Assembly: GCA_038087875.1 (NCBI GenBank)
Contig: CM075988.1
Location: 20,524,001 to 20,588,000 of the forward strand
Source: Malacoraja senta
Taxonomy: Eukaryota
Reading direction: 5' to 3'
DNA: 64,000 nt
Of the stretch, positions 6,243 through 57,415 are shown piece after piece. The notes beneath the pieces were generated by a model. That model saw nothing but the letters and a program-made list of their open reading frames with translations, was not told the origin of the DNA and made no database searches. The translations under genes were made by a program, and so were the position numbers. Within the stretch, counting starts at the first letter, position 1. Each line of letters opens with the position of its first letter.

Positions 6243-8111
6243 CACACAGCTGACTTCAGTACAACATGGCAGCGCTTGGAAGTAGGCATCATGGCAGGCT
6301 GCACAGTCTCACCCTTGGCCTTTACAATGGCCATGGAAGTCATCATCAGGGCCTCAAAATGGGTGGTGGGCGGTGAACGAACCAGGACTGGGCTCCGTCT
6401 GCCACCCATCAGGGCATACATGGACGACATGACAACACTAACCACTACTGCAACATGCACCAAGCGGCTACTTGGAAAGCTGCAGGAGAACATCAAGTGG
6501 GCCCGAATGAAAATCAAACCAAGTAAATCTTGAAGCATCTCCATAGTCAAGGGGGTGCTTAGAGACACAAGGTTCTGTATCGGTGACGACCCAATACCAA
6601 CAGTGTCTGAGCAGCCAGTTAAAAGCCTGGGAAGATGGTATAACGCAAGTCTCAAGGACATAGAGCAGGTGCAACAACTAAGGCCAGAAATTGTCAATGG
6701 ACTGGAGAACATCAATCAGACCCAACTGCCTGGGAAACTGAAGCTCTGGTGCCTACAGTTTGGACTCCTTCCTCGGACAATGTGGCCACTGACCGTTTAT
6801 GAAGCCCCAATAACAACTGTGGAGAAGATGGAGCGAACCATAACTTCATACGTGAAGAAATGGCTCGGTGTCCCACGATGTCTAACTAACATCGGCGTCT
6901 ATGGCAAAGGGGTCCTGGAACTACCTCTCACTAGTCTAACAGAGGAATATAAGTGTTCTAAAGTAAGACTCCAGATGACACTGAGGGACTCTAGAGACAA
7001 GATCATCAGTGCTGTTGCGCCGCCCCTAGCAACTGGCCGGAAGTGGACACCATCTGATGCAGTACAGCAAGCTTCATCAGCCCTGAGGCACAAAGACATA
7101 GTGGGGCAAGTCCAGCAGGGAAGAGGAGGCTTTGGCCTTACGACAAGTAAACCAACTTGGCGAAAGGCCGCAACATCAGAGCGGAGGACGTTGGTGGTTG
7201 AGGAGGTGCGGCGACAGGAGGAGGCTGCAAGAAGTGCAAAGGCGGTCTCTCTTGCCAAGCAGGGGCAATGGATGCAGTGGGAAGGTGTGGAGCGGAGGAA
7301 GATCAGCTGGAAAGAACTATGGGAAATGGAAGCAAGCAAGATCAGCTTCATCATCAGAGCGACATATGACGTGCTTCCATCACCAAAGAACCTCCATCAG
7401 TGGTACGGCGAGGATCCAACCTGTGCCATCTGCCCAACTCCAGCGACCCTCAAACACATCATGGTAGGCTGCAAGACCAGCCTCACGCAAGGGAGATACA
7501 CGTGGCGGCATAATCAGGTACTAAAAAGCCTGGCATCAGCCCTTGAGAACAGGCGGTGTGCGACCAACTCCTTGCCTCCGAGAGCAAGCAACCCCCCTCC
7601 CCTAAGGGTAACAACCTTTGTCCGAGAAGGACAGAAAACTTCTAAACTTCCTTCCACCAGATCAGAAGAAGGAAGCCAATGCAGGGCCCGTGACTGGAGG
7701 ATGCTGGCGGACATCGGCCGACAACTAATTTTTCCACCTGAAATTGCTTCCACCAACCTCAGGCCAGACTTGATGTTCTGGTCCCCTTCACAGAAGACTG
7801 CTTACATCATAGAGCTCACAGTTCCATGGGAGAACTCTGTTGAGGAGGCCTATGAGCGTAAGAAGCTGCGCTACGCAGAGCTTGCAGCAGAGGCAACGCA
7901 GCGTGGCTGGAACACCAAAGTCTATCCAGTTGAAGTGGGATGCAGAGGATTTGTTGCGTCATCTACGATCAGACTGCTGAAGGAGCTTGGAATCCACGGT
8001 CAGGCTCTGCGGAAGACCATAAGATCACTCTCAGAGGCGGCTGAAAGAAGCAGCCGGTGGATTTGGCTCAAGCGGAAAGACCCATGCTGGGCCCCAAGTA
8101 TGTCGGGGTGA
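6243..8111 (+). pseudogene. RT C-terminal half + CCHC + restriction-like endonuclease ORF of the HERO-like element
   Basis: ORFs 6177-6533 and 6555-8111 are in the same frame, separated by one TGA at 6531-6533 (KPSKS*SISIVKG). This is consistent with a CGA>TGA CpG transition. Confidence 0.9.
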
Positions 8112-21103: not shown

Positions 21104-21538
21104 AAAAAAACGTGCTTTTTCTCAATGCACTGGTGGGAGCAGCTAATGAGTCAAGAATTGTCACAAAATATACAATATCATTAGTCTAAATCAATGTGAA
21201 AATTAGCTTGATTGATTGTCTCATCAAAATACTGGTCACAGGACATTGCTTGTTGGTGCATAAAAGGGGATTTTTACTGATTAAATGAACTTTTCCTATA
21301 GATTGTGATTGCAAGTGGTGCTGAGGGCCCTGACAGAGATGAGACCCCAACAGCAGAACGTATGTAAGAATACTCTTCTATTGTTGGCTTGAGAGCTGTT
21401 TGTTCTCTGGATTGTTTCATTAGACTCCCCCGACAAGCCGTGGTGTCAAGAAATATTAGAACTAAATTGAGTTGTATATGGTTCTTCATTTGTCACGTAC
21501 CAAGGTATAGCAAAATTCATTTTTGTATACAGTTCAGT

Positions 21539-21735
21539 CTTCTTCTTCTTCTTTTGTGTCCATCTTGTTACAAATGTTGACATCGCTATCATCGTCCGTC
21601 CTGAAAAGGACGCAAGCTTCCGGCGACAATCAGTGGGAGTCATCACTTGTTACAATAGATGATGGTGGTAGAAGAATTAGCTCAGGATACTTCCAGTTTC
21701 CAGCCCCGCGACGTGGACGCTTCTGCTATGGGGCC
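21539..21735 (-). mobile_element. 197-bp short non-autonomous retroelement (Ingi/Vingi-like, tentative) with a 5' HDV-like ribozyme
   Basis: 12-bp TSD ATACAGTTCAGT (21527-21538, 21736-21747). 3' end 'ggacacaaaa(gaa)n'. No ORF. Confidence 0.8.
21670..21735 (-). ncRNA. Candidate HDV-like self-cleaving ribozyme
   Basis: Minus-strand RNA: GGCCCC(P1) AU AGCAGAA(P2) GCG(P3) UCCACGU(L3) CGC(P3') GGGGCU(P1') GG(P1.1) AAACUGGAAGUAUCCUGAG(P4) CUAA(J4/2) UUCUUCU(P2'). G1.U wobble at the cleavage site. Confidence 0.8.
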
Positions 21736-21749
21736 ATACAGTTCAGTAC

Positions 21750-23176
21750 GGCCCCATAGCAGAAACGGGGAATTACAGACCAGTTAGTCTAACATCGGTA
21801 GTGGGGAAACTGCTAGAGTCAGTTATTAAAGATGGGATAGCAGCACATTTGGAAAGTGGTGAAATCATTGGACAAAGTCAGCATGGATTTACGAAAGGTA
21901 AATCATGTCTGACGAATCTTATAGAATTTTTCGAGGATGTAACTAGTAGAGTGGATAGGGGAGAACCAGTGGATGTGTTGTATCTGGACTTTCAGAAGGC
22001 TTTCGACAAGGTACCACATAAGAGATTAGGATTCAAACTTAAATCACACGGTATTGGGGGTTCAGTATTGATGTGGATAGAGAACTGGCTGGCAAACAGG
22101 AAACAAAGAGTAGGAGTAAACGGGTCCTTTTCACAATGGCAGGCAGTGACTAGTGGGGTACCGCAAGGCTCAGTGCTGGGACACCAGCTATTTACAATTT
22201 ATATTAATGATCTGGACGAGGGAATTGAAAGCAACATCTCCAAGTTTGCGGATGGCACTAAGCTGGGGGGCAGTGTTAGCTGTGAGGAGGATGCTAGGAG
22301 TCTGCAAGGTGACTTGGATAGGCTGGGTGAGTGGGCAAATGTTTGGCAGATGCAGTATAATGTGGATAAATGTGAGGTTATCAACTTTGGTGGCAAAAAC
22401 GGGAAGGCAGACTATTATCTAAATGGTGGCAGATTAGGAAATGGGGAGATGCAGCGAGACCTGGGTGTCATGGTACACCAGTCATTGAAAGTAGGCATGC
22501 AGGTGCAGCAGGCAGTGAAGAAAGCGAATGGTATGTTGGCCTTCATAGCAAGAGGATTTGAGTATAGGAGCAGGGAGGTTCTACTGCAGTTGTACAGGGT
22601 CTTGGTGAGACCACACCTGGAGTATTGCGTACAGTTTTGGTCTCCAAATCTGAGGAAGGACATTATAGCCATAGAGGGAGTGCAGAGAAGGTTCACCAGA
22701 CTGATTCCTGGGATGTCAGGACTTTCATATGAAGAAAGACTGGATAGACTTGGCTTATACTCGCTAGAATTTAGGAGATTGAGAGGGGATCTTATAGAAA
22801 CGTACAAAATTCTTATGGGGTTGGACAGGCTAGATGCAGGAAGATTGTTCCCGATGTTGGGGAAGTCCAGGACAAGGGGTCACAGCTTAAGGATAAGGGG
22901 GAAATCCTTTAAGACTGAGATGAGGAAAAACTTTTTCACACAGAGAGTGGTGAATCTCTGGAACTCTCTGCCACAGAGGGTAGTTGAGGCCAGTTCATTG
23001 GCTATATTTAAGAGGGAGTTAGATGTGGCCCTTGTGGCTAAAGGGATCAGGGGGGTATGGAGAGAAGGCAGGTACGGGATACTGAGTTGGATGATCAGCC
23101 ATGATCATATTGAATGGCGGTGCAGGCTCGAAGGGCCGAATGGCCTACTCCTGCACCTATTTTCTATGTATCTATA
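21750..23176 (+). mobile_element. Young 5'-truncated CR1-like (HER1-type) LINE
   Basis: RT ORF 21801-23177, 3' stem-loop 'ggctcgaagggccgaatggcc' and TTTCTATG tail. AGTAC on both flanks (21745-21749, 23177-23181). Confidence 0.92.
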
Positions 23177-23177
23177 A
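21801..23177 (+). pseudogene. CR1 ORF2 reverse transcriptase fragment, catalytically altered
   Basis: Motifs QHGFTKGKSC, YLDFQKAFDKVPH and GVPQGSVLG. The catalytic FADD is FADG here (GGC at 22254-22256) but FADD in the sister copy at 63761-63772. Confidence 0.85.
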
Positions 23178-23389
23178 GTACAAGTATGACTATAAATAAG
23201 CACTTACATATCAGATAAGCATCTCAGATAATTATTAAGAAATTAAAAGATCTACCTATTTTAATATTACAAATGCATGTTATTTATTTTTTCTAAATGT
23301 TTAATAAAATGATCAATTCAACATATTGATTGGATCAGAACAATATGGTAATAGATCAGAATTTTATGACAAGATCAGACAAGATCAAT

Positions 23390-54620: not shown

Positions 54621-56405
54621 TCAGTTAGGATGGCTAAACACGCTCTGAGATCCAGGTTCCCTTTTAGATTGGAAGACTTACACATGCAGTGGGATGGGAC
54701 ATCCATGCTAAGGTGGAATAGTGCTCTGAGCTGCAATTGAAATCAAGTAAAGCTAATGCTTTCAATCGCGGTAACCCAATCTATATCATTATCATCGGCA
54801 TCATTCCCACAAGAAGCTTTAAACAAGACGAGAGAGAGAATAATTTCCACAGCAAGCAGAGTAGTACTTCACTGTAATGAAGTGTTTCTAATATAAAATT
54901 GTTCAAACAAGCGTAGCAGGTACCAAACGTACAAGTTTTTCTTTCATTCTTTCAATGTGTTATTTGAGAAAACTATCCATTGTTTTGCTTTGTGCATTCC
55001 TTTTAGAACTAAGCTCTTGTAAGTGGGTGTTACTGAGATATGCCTACTCCCTGGAGGTGATATTTCACACTGGCTAAATAAAATGGCTATTGCACATGTG
55101 TGAAACTGGTGCAGGGGGGCTGTGTGTGATTTTCCATCGGTTACCCAGAGAATTTGTTGCTTTTATTAGCACGCGGTGTCAGACACTCTCCCATGTACCA
55201 TTTTGTATTCTTTAACTTGTGCGGATGTCAGGGTGCAAATGAAGTCAAGAGCCAAGGGTGTTTAATTATCATATGTACTGGCAAGGGAATGAAATTCTTA
55301 CTTGCTGCAGCTTTATAGGCCCATTAATGCAATTACATACAGATAAATATACAATAATCAATATTACAACACTATTAATTATCAATACTAGCTAACCAGA
55401 CCACAGTAGTACATGTTCATGGTCCAATTAAATTCACAGGAGATCATAAGTGCTGAGGTAGGGTTGTGGTTAGTGTTGTGCAGTGTTCAAGAACTTGCTA
55501 GTTCACAATTTTCAAACTCCAGGTTCTTCTTCCCAATGGCAGCATTGAGATGTGAGCTTGGCCAGGGTGGTGTGGATCTTTTATGATATTAGCTGCCTTT
55601 CTGAGCCAGGGCCTCCTATAGATCCTTTTGACGGTGGGGAGGTCAATATGTTGACTGGATAATGGACCATGATGACAGGGCAATGTCTACAGACTCGATG
55701 ATGATTCCATGCCTCAGGTGTAGTGCCTTGCCTGTCCCAAGGAAATGCCATTTAACTTTTCCTTCGGCTTACCTCCCTGTTCCTCCAGTGAATCATTAAG
55801 TTGGGGTCTGCTTCCCTGCCATGGTGGACTTTAAAAATCTCTCTGCTCCAAAGACATACAGGTTTGTAGGTTAATTGGCTTGGTATAATAATTGTAATTT
55901 GTCCCTAGTGTGTGTAGGGTGGTGTTGGTGTGCGGGAATTGCTGGTCAGCGCGGACTCGGTGGGCCGACGAGCCTCTTTCCCCGCTGTATCTTGAAACTA
56001 AACTAAAAATATTGAAACAGCAAAGAGTTCCCGCGGTGCCTTGGCCAACGTTCCTTTCTCATTAACTGGTGATTGATAGCACTGGGCTTTACGGGGGAGA
56101 GTGTTGGCACGCAATGCCTGCCAAATTTGCCAACCTATCAGTCATCTTATGCAGTGAAAGTATGTCAGTGAAGTTCTGTGAAACATTTTCACATGATAAG
56201 CTGTTGCACAAATGTGTCCTTTTGATTCATTAAAATTTTAGATTATTTCAGACTATTTACATTCTATATTGTTCATAATGTTATTGCTTCAGAATCGCAC
56301 GAGCAACTAAAATCATTCTGTGGCTACATTTTCTGGAATGTGGTTTTTGGACATGGAGTTATTTGGGTTAATACCTGCCCATGCATGTCAAGCCTTTCTC
56401 ATGCT

Positions 56406-57367
56406 TTTTCTAAATTAAACTCTAATATTACTAATTTTGTCTGGGACTATAAATCACATAGAATTAAAAAAGAACACTTATGTAAACCAAAAGATGTCGG
56501 GGGACTTTCACTCCCGAATTTTCTGTATTACTATTGGGCAATACATATTAAGAATATAATTTATTGGTTGGATAGTTCTACCCAACAGACAGAATGGATA
56601 AAAATGGAGAAAGAGGATTGTTTCCCTTGTAATATAGGAACGATCCTCTTCTCCCCGAAAAAAATGAACAATACAATATATAAGAAGAACCCAATTATAC
56701 AGGATACAATAAGAATATGGAAACAAATAAAATTATCCTTAAAATTAAGAAACCTATCATTGTTAACACCAATAGCGAATAATCCTTTATTTAAACCATC
56801 TCTTATGGACAAAATATATAATCAATGGGAAAGGTTAGGAATTAAAAGGATCGGGGACATGTATGAAATGGGAGATTTACTATCATTTCAACAATTACAA
56901 TTACAATTTAAATTGAAAAACAATCATTATTTTAAATATTTTCAGATTTGCAACTTCTTGAAGACATACATACAAGGATATCAAAAAATAATTCCTGATT
57001 TATTGGAAGAAGTAATGAATATTAAAGCTGATACACAAAAATGAATATCATATTTATATAATAGTATTTTAAATATAGATTTACCAGCGACAGAGGTAAT
57101 TAGAGAAGAGTGGGAACGGGAATTAATGAAAAAATTACGAAGGTTACATGGGAAAAGTATTTGACATACATTCACAAATGTTCGATTAATGCAAGACATA
57201 ATCTAATTCAATTTAAAATTTTACATAGATTATATTACTCAAAAACAAGATTAAATAAATGTTACCCAAATATATCCCCCACTTGCGATAAATGTTTAAC
57301 CCAAGATGCAACTATAACACACTCTTTTGTTTCCTGTATAAAACTTTATAGATTTTGGATTTTATTT

Positions 57368-57415
<48 letters not shown>

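What the first reader, a model, noticed from the sequence alone, without database searches (positions are those of the whole stretch)
21539..21735. 197-bp mobile element whose 5' end is precisely an HDV-like ribozyme
Seen: on the minus strand the first 66 nt form the full nested double pseudoknot. P1 is 6 bp with a G1.U wobble, P3 is GCG/CGC, L3 is UCCACGU, P1.1 is CC/GG, P4 is present, J4/2 is G-C-U-A-A with the candidate catalytic C, and P2 has one mismatch. G1 (21735) abuts the 12-bp TSD, so the predicted cleavage site equals the insertion boundary. The other end is a (GAA)n tail. Established: HDV-like ribozymes define 5' ends of R2, RTE and ingi/L1Tc elements and their short derivatives. 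Inference: a promoter-independent 'ribozyme SINE' in a vertebrate, released from read-through transcripts and mobilised by a Vingi/Ingi-like LINE.
Basis: partly seen in the sequence, partly recalled or inferred. Interest (0 to 1): 0.85.

Follow-up and report, generated by a model that had tools for sequence, protein, structure and literature searches.

The report
Ribozyme-headed mini-retrotransposon resembling CPEB3 ribozyme
This is a short jumping DNA element, a shrunken copy of a Vingi-type retrotransposon, that begins exactly at the predicted cut site of a self-cleaving RNA. Its sister elements carry self-cleaving-RNA sequences almost identical to the one in the mammalian memory gene CPEB3, which hints at where that gene's ribozyme came from.

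Summary
Confirmed. Window 21539-21735 (-) is one copy of a family of roughly a thousand or more. It has a 12-bp TSD, a (GAA)n tail and an HDV-like fold starting at base 1. In a sample picked by the 3' end, 55 of 70 copies start at base 1-2, with unrelated flanks. I found the parent: a 3.1-kb Vingi-type APE-RT LINE with the same ribozyme, ORF start and 3' tail. So this is an internally deleted non-autonomous LINE (NARTc/RIME/SIDE kind), not an RNA-gene-headed SINE. Stems covary across six sister families. 'Promoter-independent' is untested, and cleavage was not assayed. The unexpected result is that these ribozymes match the mammalian CPEB3 ribozyme model (40 bits here, up to 64 in sisters). 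One sister family equals the CPEB3 consensus at 59 of 67 positions (counted by eye), including the dispensable P4 stem. The CPEB3 ribozyme may be a domesticated Vingi 5' end. My searches found no paper saying so, but four key papers were not held.

The parts
21736..21747 (.). Target-site duplication, copy abutting G1
   Evidence: identical 12-mer at both ends
21670..21735 (-). HDV-like ribozyme, element nt 1-66. P1 21735-21730/21707-21702; P2 21727-21721/21676-21670 (private mismatch at 21672); P3 21720-21718/21710-21708; L3 21717-21711; P1.1 G's 21701-21700; weak P4 21699-21681; candidate catalytic C 21680
21644..21669 (-). Rest of the parent's 5'UTR, carrying a ~41-nt deletion relative to the parent LINE
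   Evidence: alignment to L205
21579..21643 (-). Remnant of the first ~22 codons of the parent ORF, broken off just before the APE domain
   Evidence: family majority nt 87-157 match L205 and L206 at 63 of 71 each
21539..21578 (-). 3' terminus of the parent LINE plus (GAA)n tail; presumed RT recognition end
   Evidence: family majority nt 158-190 match family G tails at 29-30 of 32 (L206-L209); the terminal motif is also in family B
21527..21538 (.). Target-site duplication, tail-side copy
21750..21767 (+). Locus-specific inverted duplicate of the element's first 18 nt (17 of 18), starting exactly at G1 and fused to the CR1 5' junction; pairs with P1/P2 in a read-through RNA
   Evidence: hairpin -54.2 kcal/mol, z -6.1
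21763..23176 (+). Neighbouring 5'-truncated CR1-like LINE (RT frame), apparent 5-bp TSD at 21745-21749 and 23177-23181; not part of the element
   Evidence: the CR1 label is recalled from its RT motifs and was not scanned

Best explanation
The element is a non-autonomous, internally deleted derivative of a Vingi-type non-LTR retrotransposon (family G here). Steps: (1, inferred) A source copy is transcribed from a host read-through or from an internal promoter. (2, inferred from fold and family precedent) The HDV-like ribozyme cuts 5' of G1, giving a unit RNA with a 5'-OH end that carries no upstream flank. (3, inferred) A Vingi APE-RT protein (parent G, or the younger family B with the same terminal motif) binds the 3' tail in trans, nicks the target and reverse-transcribes the RNA by TPRT. 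(4, shown) The products are dispersed copies that start at G1, end in (GAA)n and carry TSDs. Inserted copies decay neutrally, and this copy is probably crippled. The ribozyme belongs to a Vingi-associated lineage that by sequence includes the mammalian CPEB3 ribozyme (see novel case).
For: Family size: 2069 first-look candidates, 40 scored; 173 exact matches to the first 36 nt, control 0; 333 exact matches to a 23-nt 3' motif, control 0. 5' ends: among the first 70 of those 333, alignments start at nt 1 in 50, nt 2 in 5, nt 3-10 in 3 and beyond nt 10 in 12; six pairs are segmental duplicates, so 49 of 64 independent insertions start at nt 1-2; flanks share no sequence. Loose ends pile up at 21735-21737 with agreement 0.36-0.45 in contigs of public runs X1, X19 and X21. 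Parent: L205 and L206 carry the same ribozyme, then an APE-RT ORF and the same tail (nt 2-82 77/81; nt 87-157 63/71; nt 158-190 29-30/32). L206 is ~3.1 kb with a TSD. Sister family B protein has APE and RT and no RNase H. Covariation over 18 copies of 6 families: 88.9% of cells paired, 8 of 17 pairs with double changes, 0 of 500 shuffles reach the score, slid controls 40-55%. P1.1 switches CC/GG versus UC/GU between families. A 6-bp P1 is normal (PMC4908430), and drz-Spur-3, a self-cleaving HDV-like ribozyme, has the same segment lengths (read from primers in PMC5984629). In 5'-inverted Vingi copies the inverted piece ends at or within a few bases of G1 (L068, L082 complete; L072, L078 lack 3 nt; L084, L086 lack more). 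Only 2 of 55 copies have G at -1, so there is no sign of a cap-templated extra G (weak, by analogy to L1 from recall).
Against: No cleavage or RNA data: no RNA holder was listed and only contigs were laid. Within the family the ribozyme decays as fast as the body (non-CpG 3.4% vs 3.9%), so covariation comes only from related families, where shuffles overstate significance. Only 14 of 70 copies still pass my descriptor. P4 is weak and competes with P1.1. Both full-length parent copies start at nt 2 and are broken, with G copies 88-96% identical pairwise, so the actual mobiliser is not identified. None of six family B copies examined has a complete frame; L091 stops about 60 codons early. A short RNA with an internal promoter would also give uniform 5' ends.
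Confidence: 0.85

Rival explanations
1. The first 66 nt act mainly as an internal Pol II promoter that starts at G1, and the ribozyme is a backup or vestige (Pr77-type dual element). The family is then not promoter-independent.
For: L1Tc/NARTc Pr77 is both promoter and ribozyme and cleaves at +1 (PMC3383444, abstract and passages). Vingi is the sister clade of Ingi (PMC13708176). Insertion is dispersed rather than site-specific.
Against: Stems are kept by compensatory change across families, which a DNA promoter alone would not need. There is no extra G at -1. This rival is compatible with the best explanation as an added function.
Confidence: 0.35
2. The family A ribozyme is degenerate (6-bp P1, weak P4) and inactive; the family spread passively because it is short.
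For: The minimum-energy fold uses the P1.1 G's in another hairpin, and its stability is no better than shuffles (z 0.66-0.74). There is no purifying signal within the family.
Against: ViennaRNA cannot model the pseudoknot. All core positions in the published descriptor are kept (G1.U, the L3 U/C/G, a two-pair P1.1, the catalytic C). P1.1 has a C-G pair where CPEB3 has U.U. The autonomous parent carries the same ribozyme.
Confidence: 0.12
3. The likeness to the CPEB3 ribozyme is convergence on a constrained fold, not common descent.
For: R2 and HDV cores share 21 of 27 nt (quoted in PMC8256844). Short G/C-rich stems have limited options. Six families were available from which to pick the best match. 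No mammalian flank was examined for Vingi remnants or a TSD.
Against: Identity extends to positions that are free to vary: P1, P2 and all 7 pairs of P4 in family C. P4 differs or is absent among sister families. drz-Spur-3 shares the core but not P1 or P4 (by eye, PMC5984629 primers). The weak U.U P1.1, described as a CPEB3 trait that HDV lacks (bioRxiv 2022.09.22.508989), is present in families B-F, and the ACGU loop palindrome is in B, D, E and F.
Confidence: 0.25

Closest known systems
NARTc / RIME / SIDER (short internally deleted derivatives of L1Tc/ingi in trypanosomatids)
   Same: Short non-coding element made of the LINE's 5' and 3' ends; HDV-like ribozyme whose cut site is +1; trans-mobilised (PMC3383444, PMC4035085, passages).
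   Different: Animal host, Vingi-type parent, (GAA)n tail, CPEB3-type ribozyme sequence; promoter activity unknown here.
Non-autonomous Vingi derivatives (Vingi-1_EE deletions; Vingi-2_ACar-related SINE bodies)
   Same: Bipartite internal-deletion products of Vingi (PMC5786205, passages); parent ~3.1 kb, single APE-RT ORF.
   Different: [quoted passage not shown] Here six Vingi-type families carry one; direct RT linkage was seen for A (via G), B, C, D and F, not for E.
R2 SIDEs (Drosophila)
   Same: Ribozyme-headed, internally deleted non-autonomous retroelement (PMC3414825, search listing and abstract start only).
   Different: R2 SIDEs are rDNA-specific and use a restriction-like endonuclease; this family is dispersed and APE-driven with ~9-13 bp TSDs.
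Mammalian CPEB3 ribozyme (Rfam RF00622)
   Same: Same fold and near-same sequence. The window copy matches the Rfam consensus at 22 of 24 nt from J1/2 into the P1 3' strand, and the family P2 is identical; sister family C majority matches at 59 of 67 (by eye).
   Different: CPEB3's is a single-copy intronic element kept across mammals (PMC8233481). These are multicopy 5' ends of mobile elements. Family A has a 6-bp P1, CC/GG P1.1 and an unrelated P4.

Membership tests
HDV-like ribozyme | Nested double pseudoknot P1, P1.1, P2, P3, P4 with 6-7 bp P1 | tested here: met
   P4 weak; 6- or 7-bp P1 per PMC4908430
HDV-like ribozyme | Core residues: G1.Y, L3 U...C-G, C-G pair(s) in P1.1, catalytic C in J4/2 | tested here: met
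   against the descriptor in PMC6326823; J4/2 is C-U-A-A whereas that descriptor has C-R-R-A (family F has the same variant)
HDV-like ribozyme | Compensatory change in stems | tested here: met
   across six families (P1, P2; P3 nearly invariant); not testable within the family because decay is neutral
HDV-like ribozyme | Mg-dependent self-cleavage 5' of G1 | not testable with these tools
   needs an in vitro assay
Bipartite non-autonomous LINE (SIDE type) | 5' and 3' ends both match an autonomous LINE, with the middle deleted | tested here: met
   (L205-L209)
Bipartite non-autonomous LINE (SIDE type) | TPRT hallmarks: TSD, simple-repeat tail, some 5'-truncated copies | tested here: met
   TSD of 7+ nt in 44 of 55 full-length copies (mismatches allowed, no chance control); 15 of 70 start after nt 2
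Classical SINE | Head derived from tRNA, 7SL or 5S RNA (Pol III promoter) | tested here: not met
   no tRNA in the window; no such Rfam family over the element; the head is the LINE's own 5' end
Vingi clade (parent) | Compact single ORF with APE and RT, no RNase H | tested here: met
   Pfam on family B protein P0001; parent G aligns to it over aa 35-940 at 45-63%; definition from PMC13708176
Vingi clade (parent) | RT phylogeny groups with named Vingi elements rather than RTE or Ingi | tested here: inconclusive
   no named references were available; relatives include a 939-aa Anolis protein at 50% identity and lancelet, sea urchin and insect proteins; no tree was built
CPEB3 ribozyme (RF00622) | Score above the Rfam gathering threshold | tested here: met
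   40.3 bits; sister families up to 64.2
CPEB3 ribozyme (RF00622) | Located in the CPEB3 intron as an orthologous single copy | tested here: not met
   multicopy and TSD-bounded; a homologue at most, not an orthologue

The most novel reading that the evidence does not exclude
Vingi-type retrotransposons carry a distinct lineage of 5' HDV-like ribozymes, and the mammalian CPEB3 ribozyme is a member of it: the surviving 5' end of a Vingi element (or of a mini-derivative like this one) that inserted into the CPEB3 intron in an early mammal and was domesticated. Every segment of the CPEB3 ribozyme has a near-exact counterpart among Vingi-type families in this one genome (P1 and P4 in C, P2 in A, L3, U.U P1.1 and J4/2 in B and D), and a metagenome contig shows the same ribozyme type heading a Vingi-type ORF in another record (L223).
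Probability: 0.6. Interest if true: 0.85.

Novelty: new variant of a known kind. Interest (0 to 1): 0.66.

Why it matters
The element type is known, but this extends ribozyme-defined 5' ends to Vingi-type LINEs and their mini-derivatives in an animal genome. Vingi is being built into RNA-based gene-insertion tools that retain the native 5'UTR (PMC13708176), and that review mentions ribozymes only for R2. More important, the origin of the CPEB3 ribozyme, conserved for over 100 million years and linked to memory, is not addressed in the CPEB3 papers I searched. A near-identical ribozyme heading mobile elements gives a concrete, testable source, and it bears on the proposal that HDV took its ribozyme from CPEB3. 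The six natural families are also a ready series of variants (with and without P4, one- or two-pair P1.1, 6- or 7-bp P1) for ribozyme biochemistry.

Tried and rejected
(1) A guess that the deletion junction lay at nt ~137: a pattern for a parent continuing there gave 3 hits, all point-mutated short copies. The junction is at ~nt 157/158. (2) Family B as the parent: it shares only the ribozyme core and the terminal ~20 nt, so it is kept only as a possible trans-mobiliser. (3) The first two copy searches are score-ranked and favour full-length copies, so they were not used for the 5'-end count. (4) miRNA hits at 21716-21769 are the local inverted duplicate. (5) A 7-bp P1 register using base -1 was rejected, because L3 and the P1.1 G's covary in the 6-bp register. 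(6) Expression: no RNA holder listed; contigs cannot show RNA ends. (7) The sigma-70 scan is irrelevant to a eukaryote. (8) No host exon was recognised by eye among 48 open frames of 70+ codons in unmasked window sequence, so the read-through source and host taxon are unknown. (9) A collinear full-length family C element was not found (5 matches). (10) Of 4 metagenome hits (3 distinct loci), only L223 has a Vingi-type ORF; L224/L225 and L226 have none in the flank held. (11) Look-ups of earlier scan findings returned nothing. (12) Webb 2009, Webb and Luptak 2011, Ruminski 2011 and Kojima 2011 were not held, so whether they or their supplements already note the CPEB3-Vingi likeness is open.

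Full report
Observation. The sequence is as described. A 12-bp direct repeat at 21527-21538 and 21736-21747 encloses 197 bp whose minus strand starts at G 21735 and ends in (GAA)n. The first 66 nt parse as P1 (6 bp, G1.U), J1/2 (2 nt), P2 (7 bp), P3 (3 bp), a 7-nt L3, a two-pair P1.1, a weak P4 and a J4/2 with C at 21680. A post hoc descriptor finds only this site in the window and none in 600 shuffled strands. Rfam's CPEB3 ribozyme model scores it 40.3 bits, above the gathering score of 35. The P2 mismatch is private to this copy.

Family. The genome search gave 2069 first-look candidates, of which 40 were scored at 93-100% identity. Exact patterns gave 173 matches for the first 36 nt and 333 for a 23-nt 3' motif, with reversed controls at 0. 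To avoid selecting for full length I took the first 70 of the 333 in coordinate order, all on contig C1. Alignments start at nt 1 in 50, nt 2 in 5, nt 3-10 in 3 and later in 12; after removing six duplicate pairs, 49 of 64 start at nt 1-2. No shared sequence extends upstream of G1. TSD-like repeats were found for 44 of 55 full-length copies (mismatches allowed, no chance control); exact ones are mostly 9-13 bp. Mean identity to the majority sequence is 95.7%, and the ribozyme decays like the body (3.4% vs 3.9% at non-CpG sites), so copies drift neutrally and 14 of 70 still pass the descriptor. Contigs from four public runs of three coded organisms hold the family. In three of the runs many loose ends fall at 21735-21737 with unrelated flanks, and the fourth has two single contigs there. 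These are contigs and say nothing about RNA.

Parent. Searching the genome with RF00622 gave 51 matches among 59 scored candidates, up to 64.2 bits. The 30 loci fetched fall into five further families, B-F. Family B is a 3.1-kb element, 96-98% identical among six copies, whose ribozyme is followed at once by one ORF with APE and RT domains and no RNase H. An RT search exposed another family, G, whose 3' tail matches the element. Two full-length G copies, L205 and L206, begin with this element's ribozyme, continue through a 5'UTR into an ORF whose first ~22 codons are the element's middle, and end in the same tail. The majority sequence matches at 77 of 81 (nt 2-82), 63 of 71 (nt 87-157) and 29-30 of 32 (nt 158-190). 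The element is therefore G with about 2.9 kb removed, plus a ~41-nt deletion in the UTR. G copies are broken and 88-96% identical pairwise. B is younger and shares the terminal motif, so either may have mobilised it. The architecture fits Vingi as defined in PMC13708176 (passages), and relatives include a 939-aa Anolis protein, but no tree with named references was built.

Structure. Across 18 copies of six families (16 distinct), 88.9% of P1/P2/P3 cells pair, 8 of 17 pairs show changes on both sides, 0 of 500 shuffles reach the covariation score, and slid controls pair at 40-55% (relatedness inflates the shuffle test). L3 position 2 and its P1.1 partner change together, C-G in A and U.U in B-F. 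A 6- or 7-bp P1 is usual (PMC4908430, passages), and drz-Spur-3 has the same segment lengths as family A (read from primers in PMC5984629). Seven loci are 5'-inverted Vingi insertions in which the ribozyme end is fused to an RT fragment. Three have a TSD around the whole insertion (L068, L072, L082). The inverted piece runs to G1 in L068 and L082 and stops a few or more bases short in the rest. Against: P4 is weak and an alternative hairpin competes for P1.1.

This copy. An inverted duplicate of the first 18 nt lies at 21750-21767, at the 5' junction of a CR1-like insertion. In a read-through RNA it forms a -54 kcal/mol hairpin over P1 and P2.

Mechanism. Shown: boundaries, parentage, TSDs, tail and covariation. 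Inferred: transcription, cleavage at G1 to give a 5'-OH unit RNA, and trans TPRT by a Vingi protein. Whether the RNA comes from read-through or an internal promoter is open, since L1Tc/NARTc use the same 77 nt for both (PMC3383444, abstract and passages).

Comparison with what is known. [quoted passage not shown] Ribozyme-headed short elements are established in trypanosomatids (PMC4035085, passages) and noted generally in a review (PMC6765202, passages). So the kind is known. It works like NARTc and is a member of the bipartite class, not of RNA-gene-headed SINEs.

The CPEB3 link. Counted by eye against the Rfam consensus line, the window copy matches 22 of 24 nt from J1/2 into the P1 3' strand. 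Family C, tied to a Vingi RT and a shared 3' end within single TSD-bounded insertions, matches 54 of 64 positions in one decayed copy (L072) and 59 of 67 by majority of five copies. The match includes P1 and all seven pairs of P4, a stem that differs or is absent in sister families; two of the eight differences are one compensated P2 pair and three are in the L4 loop. The weak U.U P1.1 that distinguishes CPEB3 from HDV (bioRxiv 2022.09.22.508989, passages) is in families B-F. A metagenome scan gave 4 records at 3 distinct loci scoring 52-66.5 bits; one (L223) heads a Vingi-type ORF at 46% identity and the other two loci show no ORF in the flank held. Convergence cannot be excluded (R2 and HDV cores share 21 of 27 nt, PMC8256844, passages), and no mammalian flank was examined.

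Literature coverage. 'CPEB3' with 'Vingi' gave 0 papers; 'HDV-like ribozyme' with 'Vingi' gave 1 review, whose ribozyme passages concern R2 only; 'CPEB3, ribozyme, shark' gave 1 review, listing only. Term searches of PMC8233481 found no 'origin' or 'retrotranspos', and PMC10919898 mentions retrotransposons only as another setting. All papers were seen as abstracts or passages, none whole, and no supplements were read. Webb 2009, Webb and Luptak 2011, Ruminski 2011 and Kojima 2011 were not held and could contain the observation.

Verdict. A real feature, correctly read, and a new variant of a known kind: element identity about 0.85, self-cleavage likely but unproven, promoter independence unknown. 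The CPEB3-from-Vingi reading has probability about 0.6 and carries most of the interest. Overall interest 0.66.

Noticed in passing
window 21750-21767 (+): The inverted duplicate at the CR1 5' junction starts exactly at G1. Either the CR1 RT switched onto a ribozyme-cleaved RNA and ran off its 5' end, or DNA snapped back on a 3-bp hairpin in the TSD. The first would be a trace of cleavage in vivo.
   Followed up: partly
L068, L072, L076, L078, L082, L084, L086: 5'-inverted Vingi insertions in which the inverted piece is the element's extreme 5' ~90-110 nt, fused to a distant RT fragment; twin-priming-like but with a very large gap.
   Followed up: partly
L081, L083, L087-L090: Family E: a ~190-nt TSD-bounded element whose ribozyme lacks P4 altogether (minimal HDV-like form, ~54 nt); parent not found.
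   Followed up: partly
55 full-length copies: Base -1 is T in 37, A in 15, G in 2 and C in 1: a target-site or junction preference, also seen by eye in families B and E.
   Followed up: no
L224/L225 1188-1267 and L226 1188-1254: CPEB3-type ribozymes (66.5 and 52.1 bits) with no RT ORF in the flank held; possible independent orphan or domesticated copies in other organisms.
   Followed up: no
L022, L025, L129: A subfamily with a 4-nt longer 3' tail closer to the parent's; it also shows as loose ends at 21566 in the public runs, so it is probably the older form.
   Followed up: partly
L181, L182, L185-L188, L190, L194-L196, L202, L203: A further Vingi-type family that recurs on small unplaced contigs, apparently in tandem arrays 10-18 kb apart.
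   Followed up: no
window 6534-8108 (+) and 56226-57373 (+): A 525-codon frame resembling a restriction-like-endonuclease LINE and an L1/Tx1-like ORF2 end; labels by recall, not scanned.
   Followed up: no
window 21480-21538 and from 23182: The element and the CR1 both sit within a few bases of each other inside the 3' tail of an older repeat (Rex1-like by recall).
   Followed up: no
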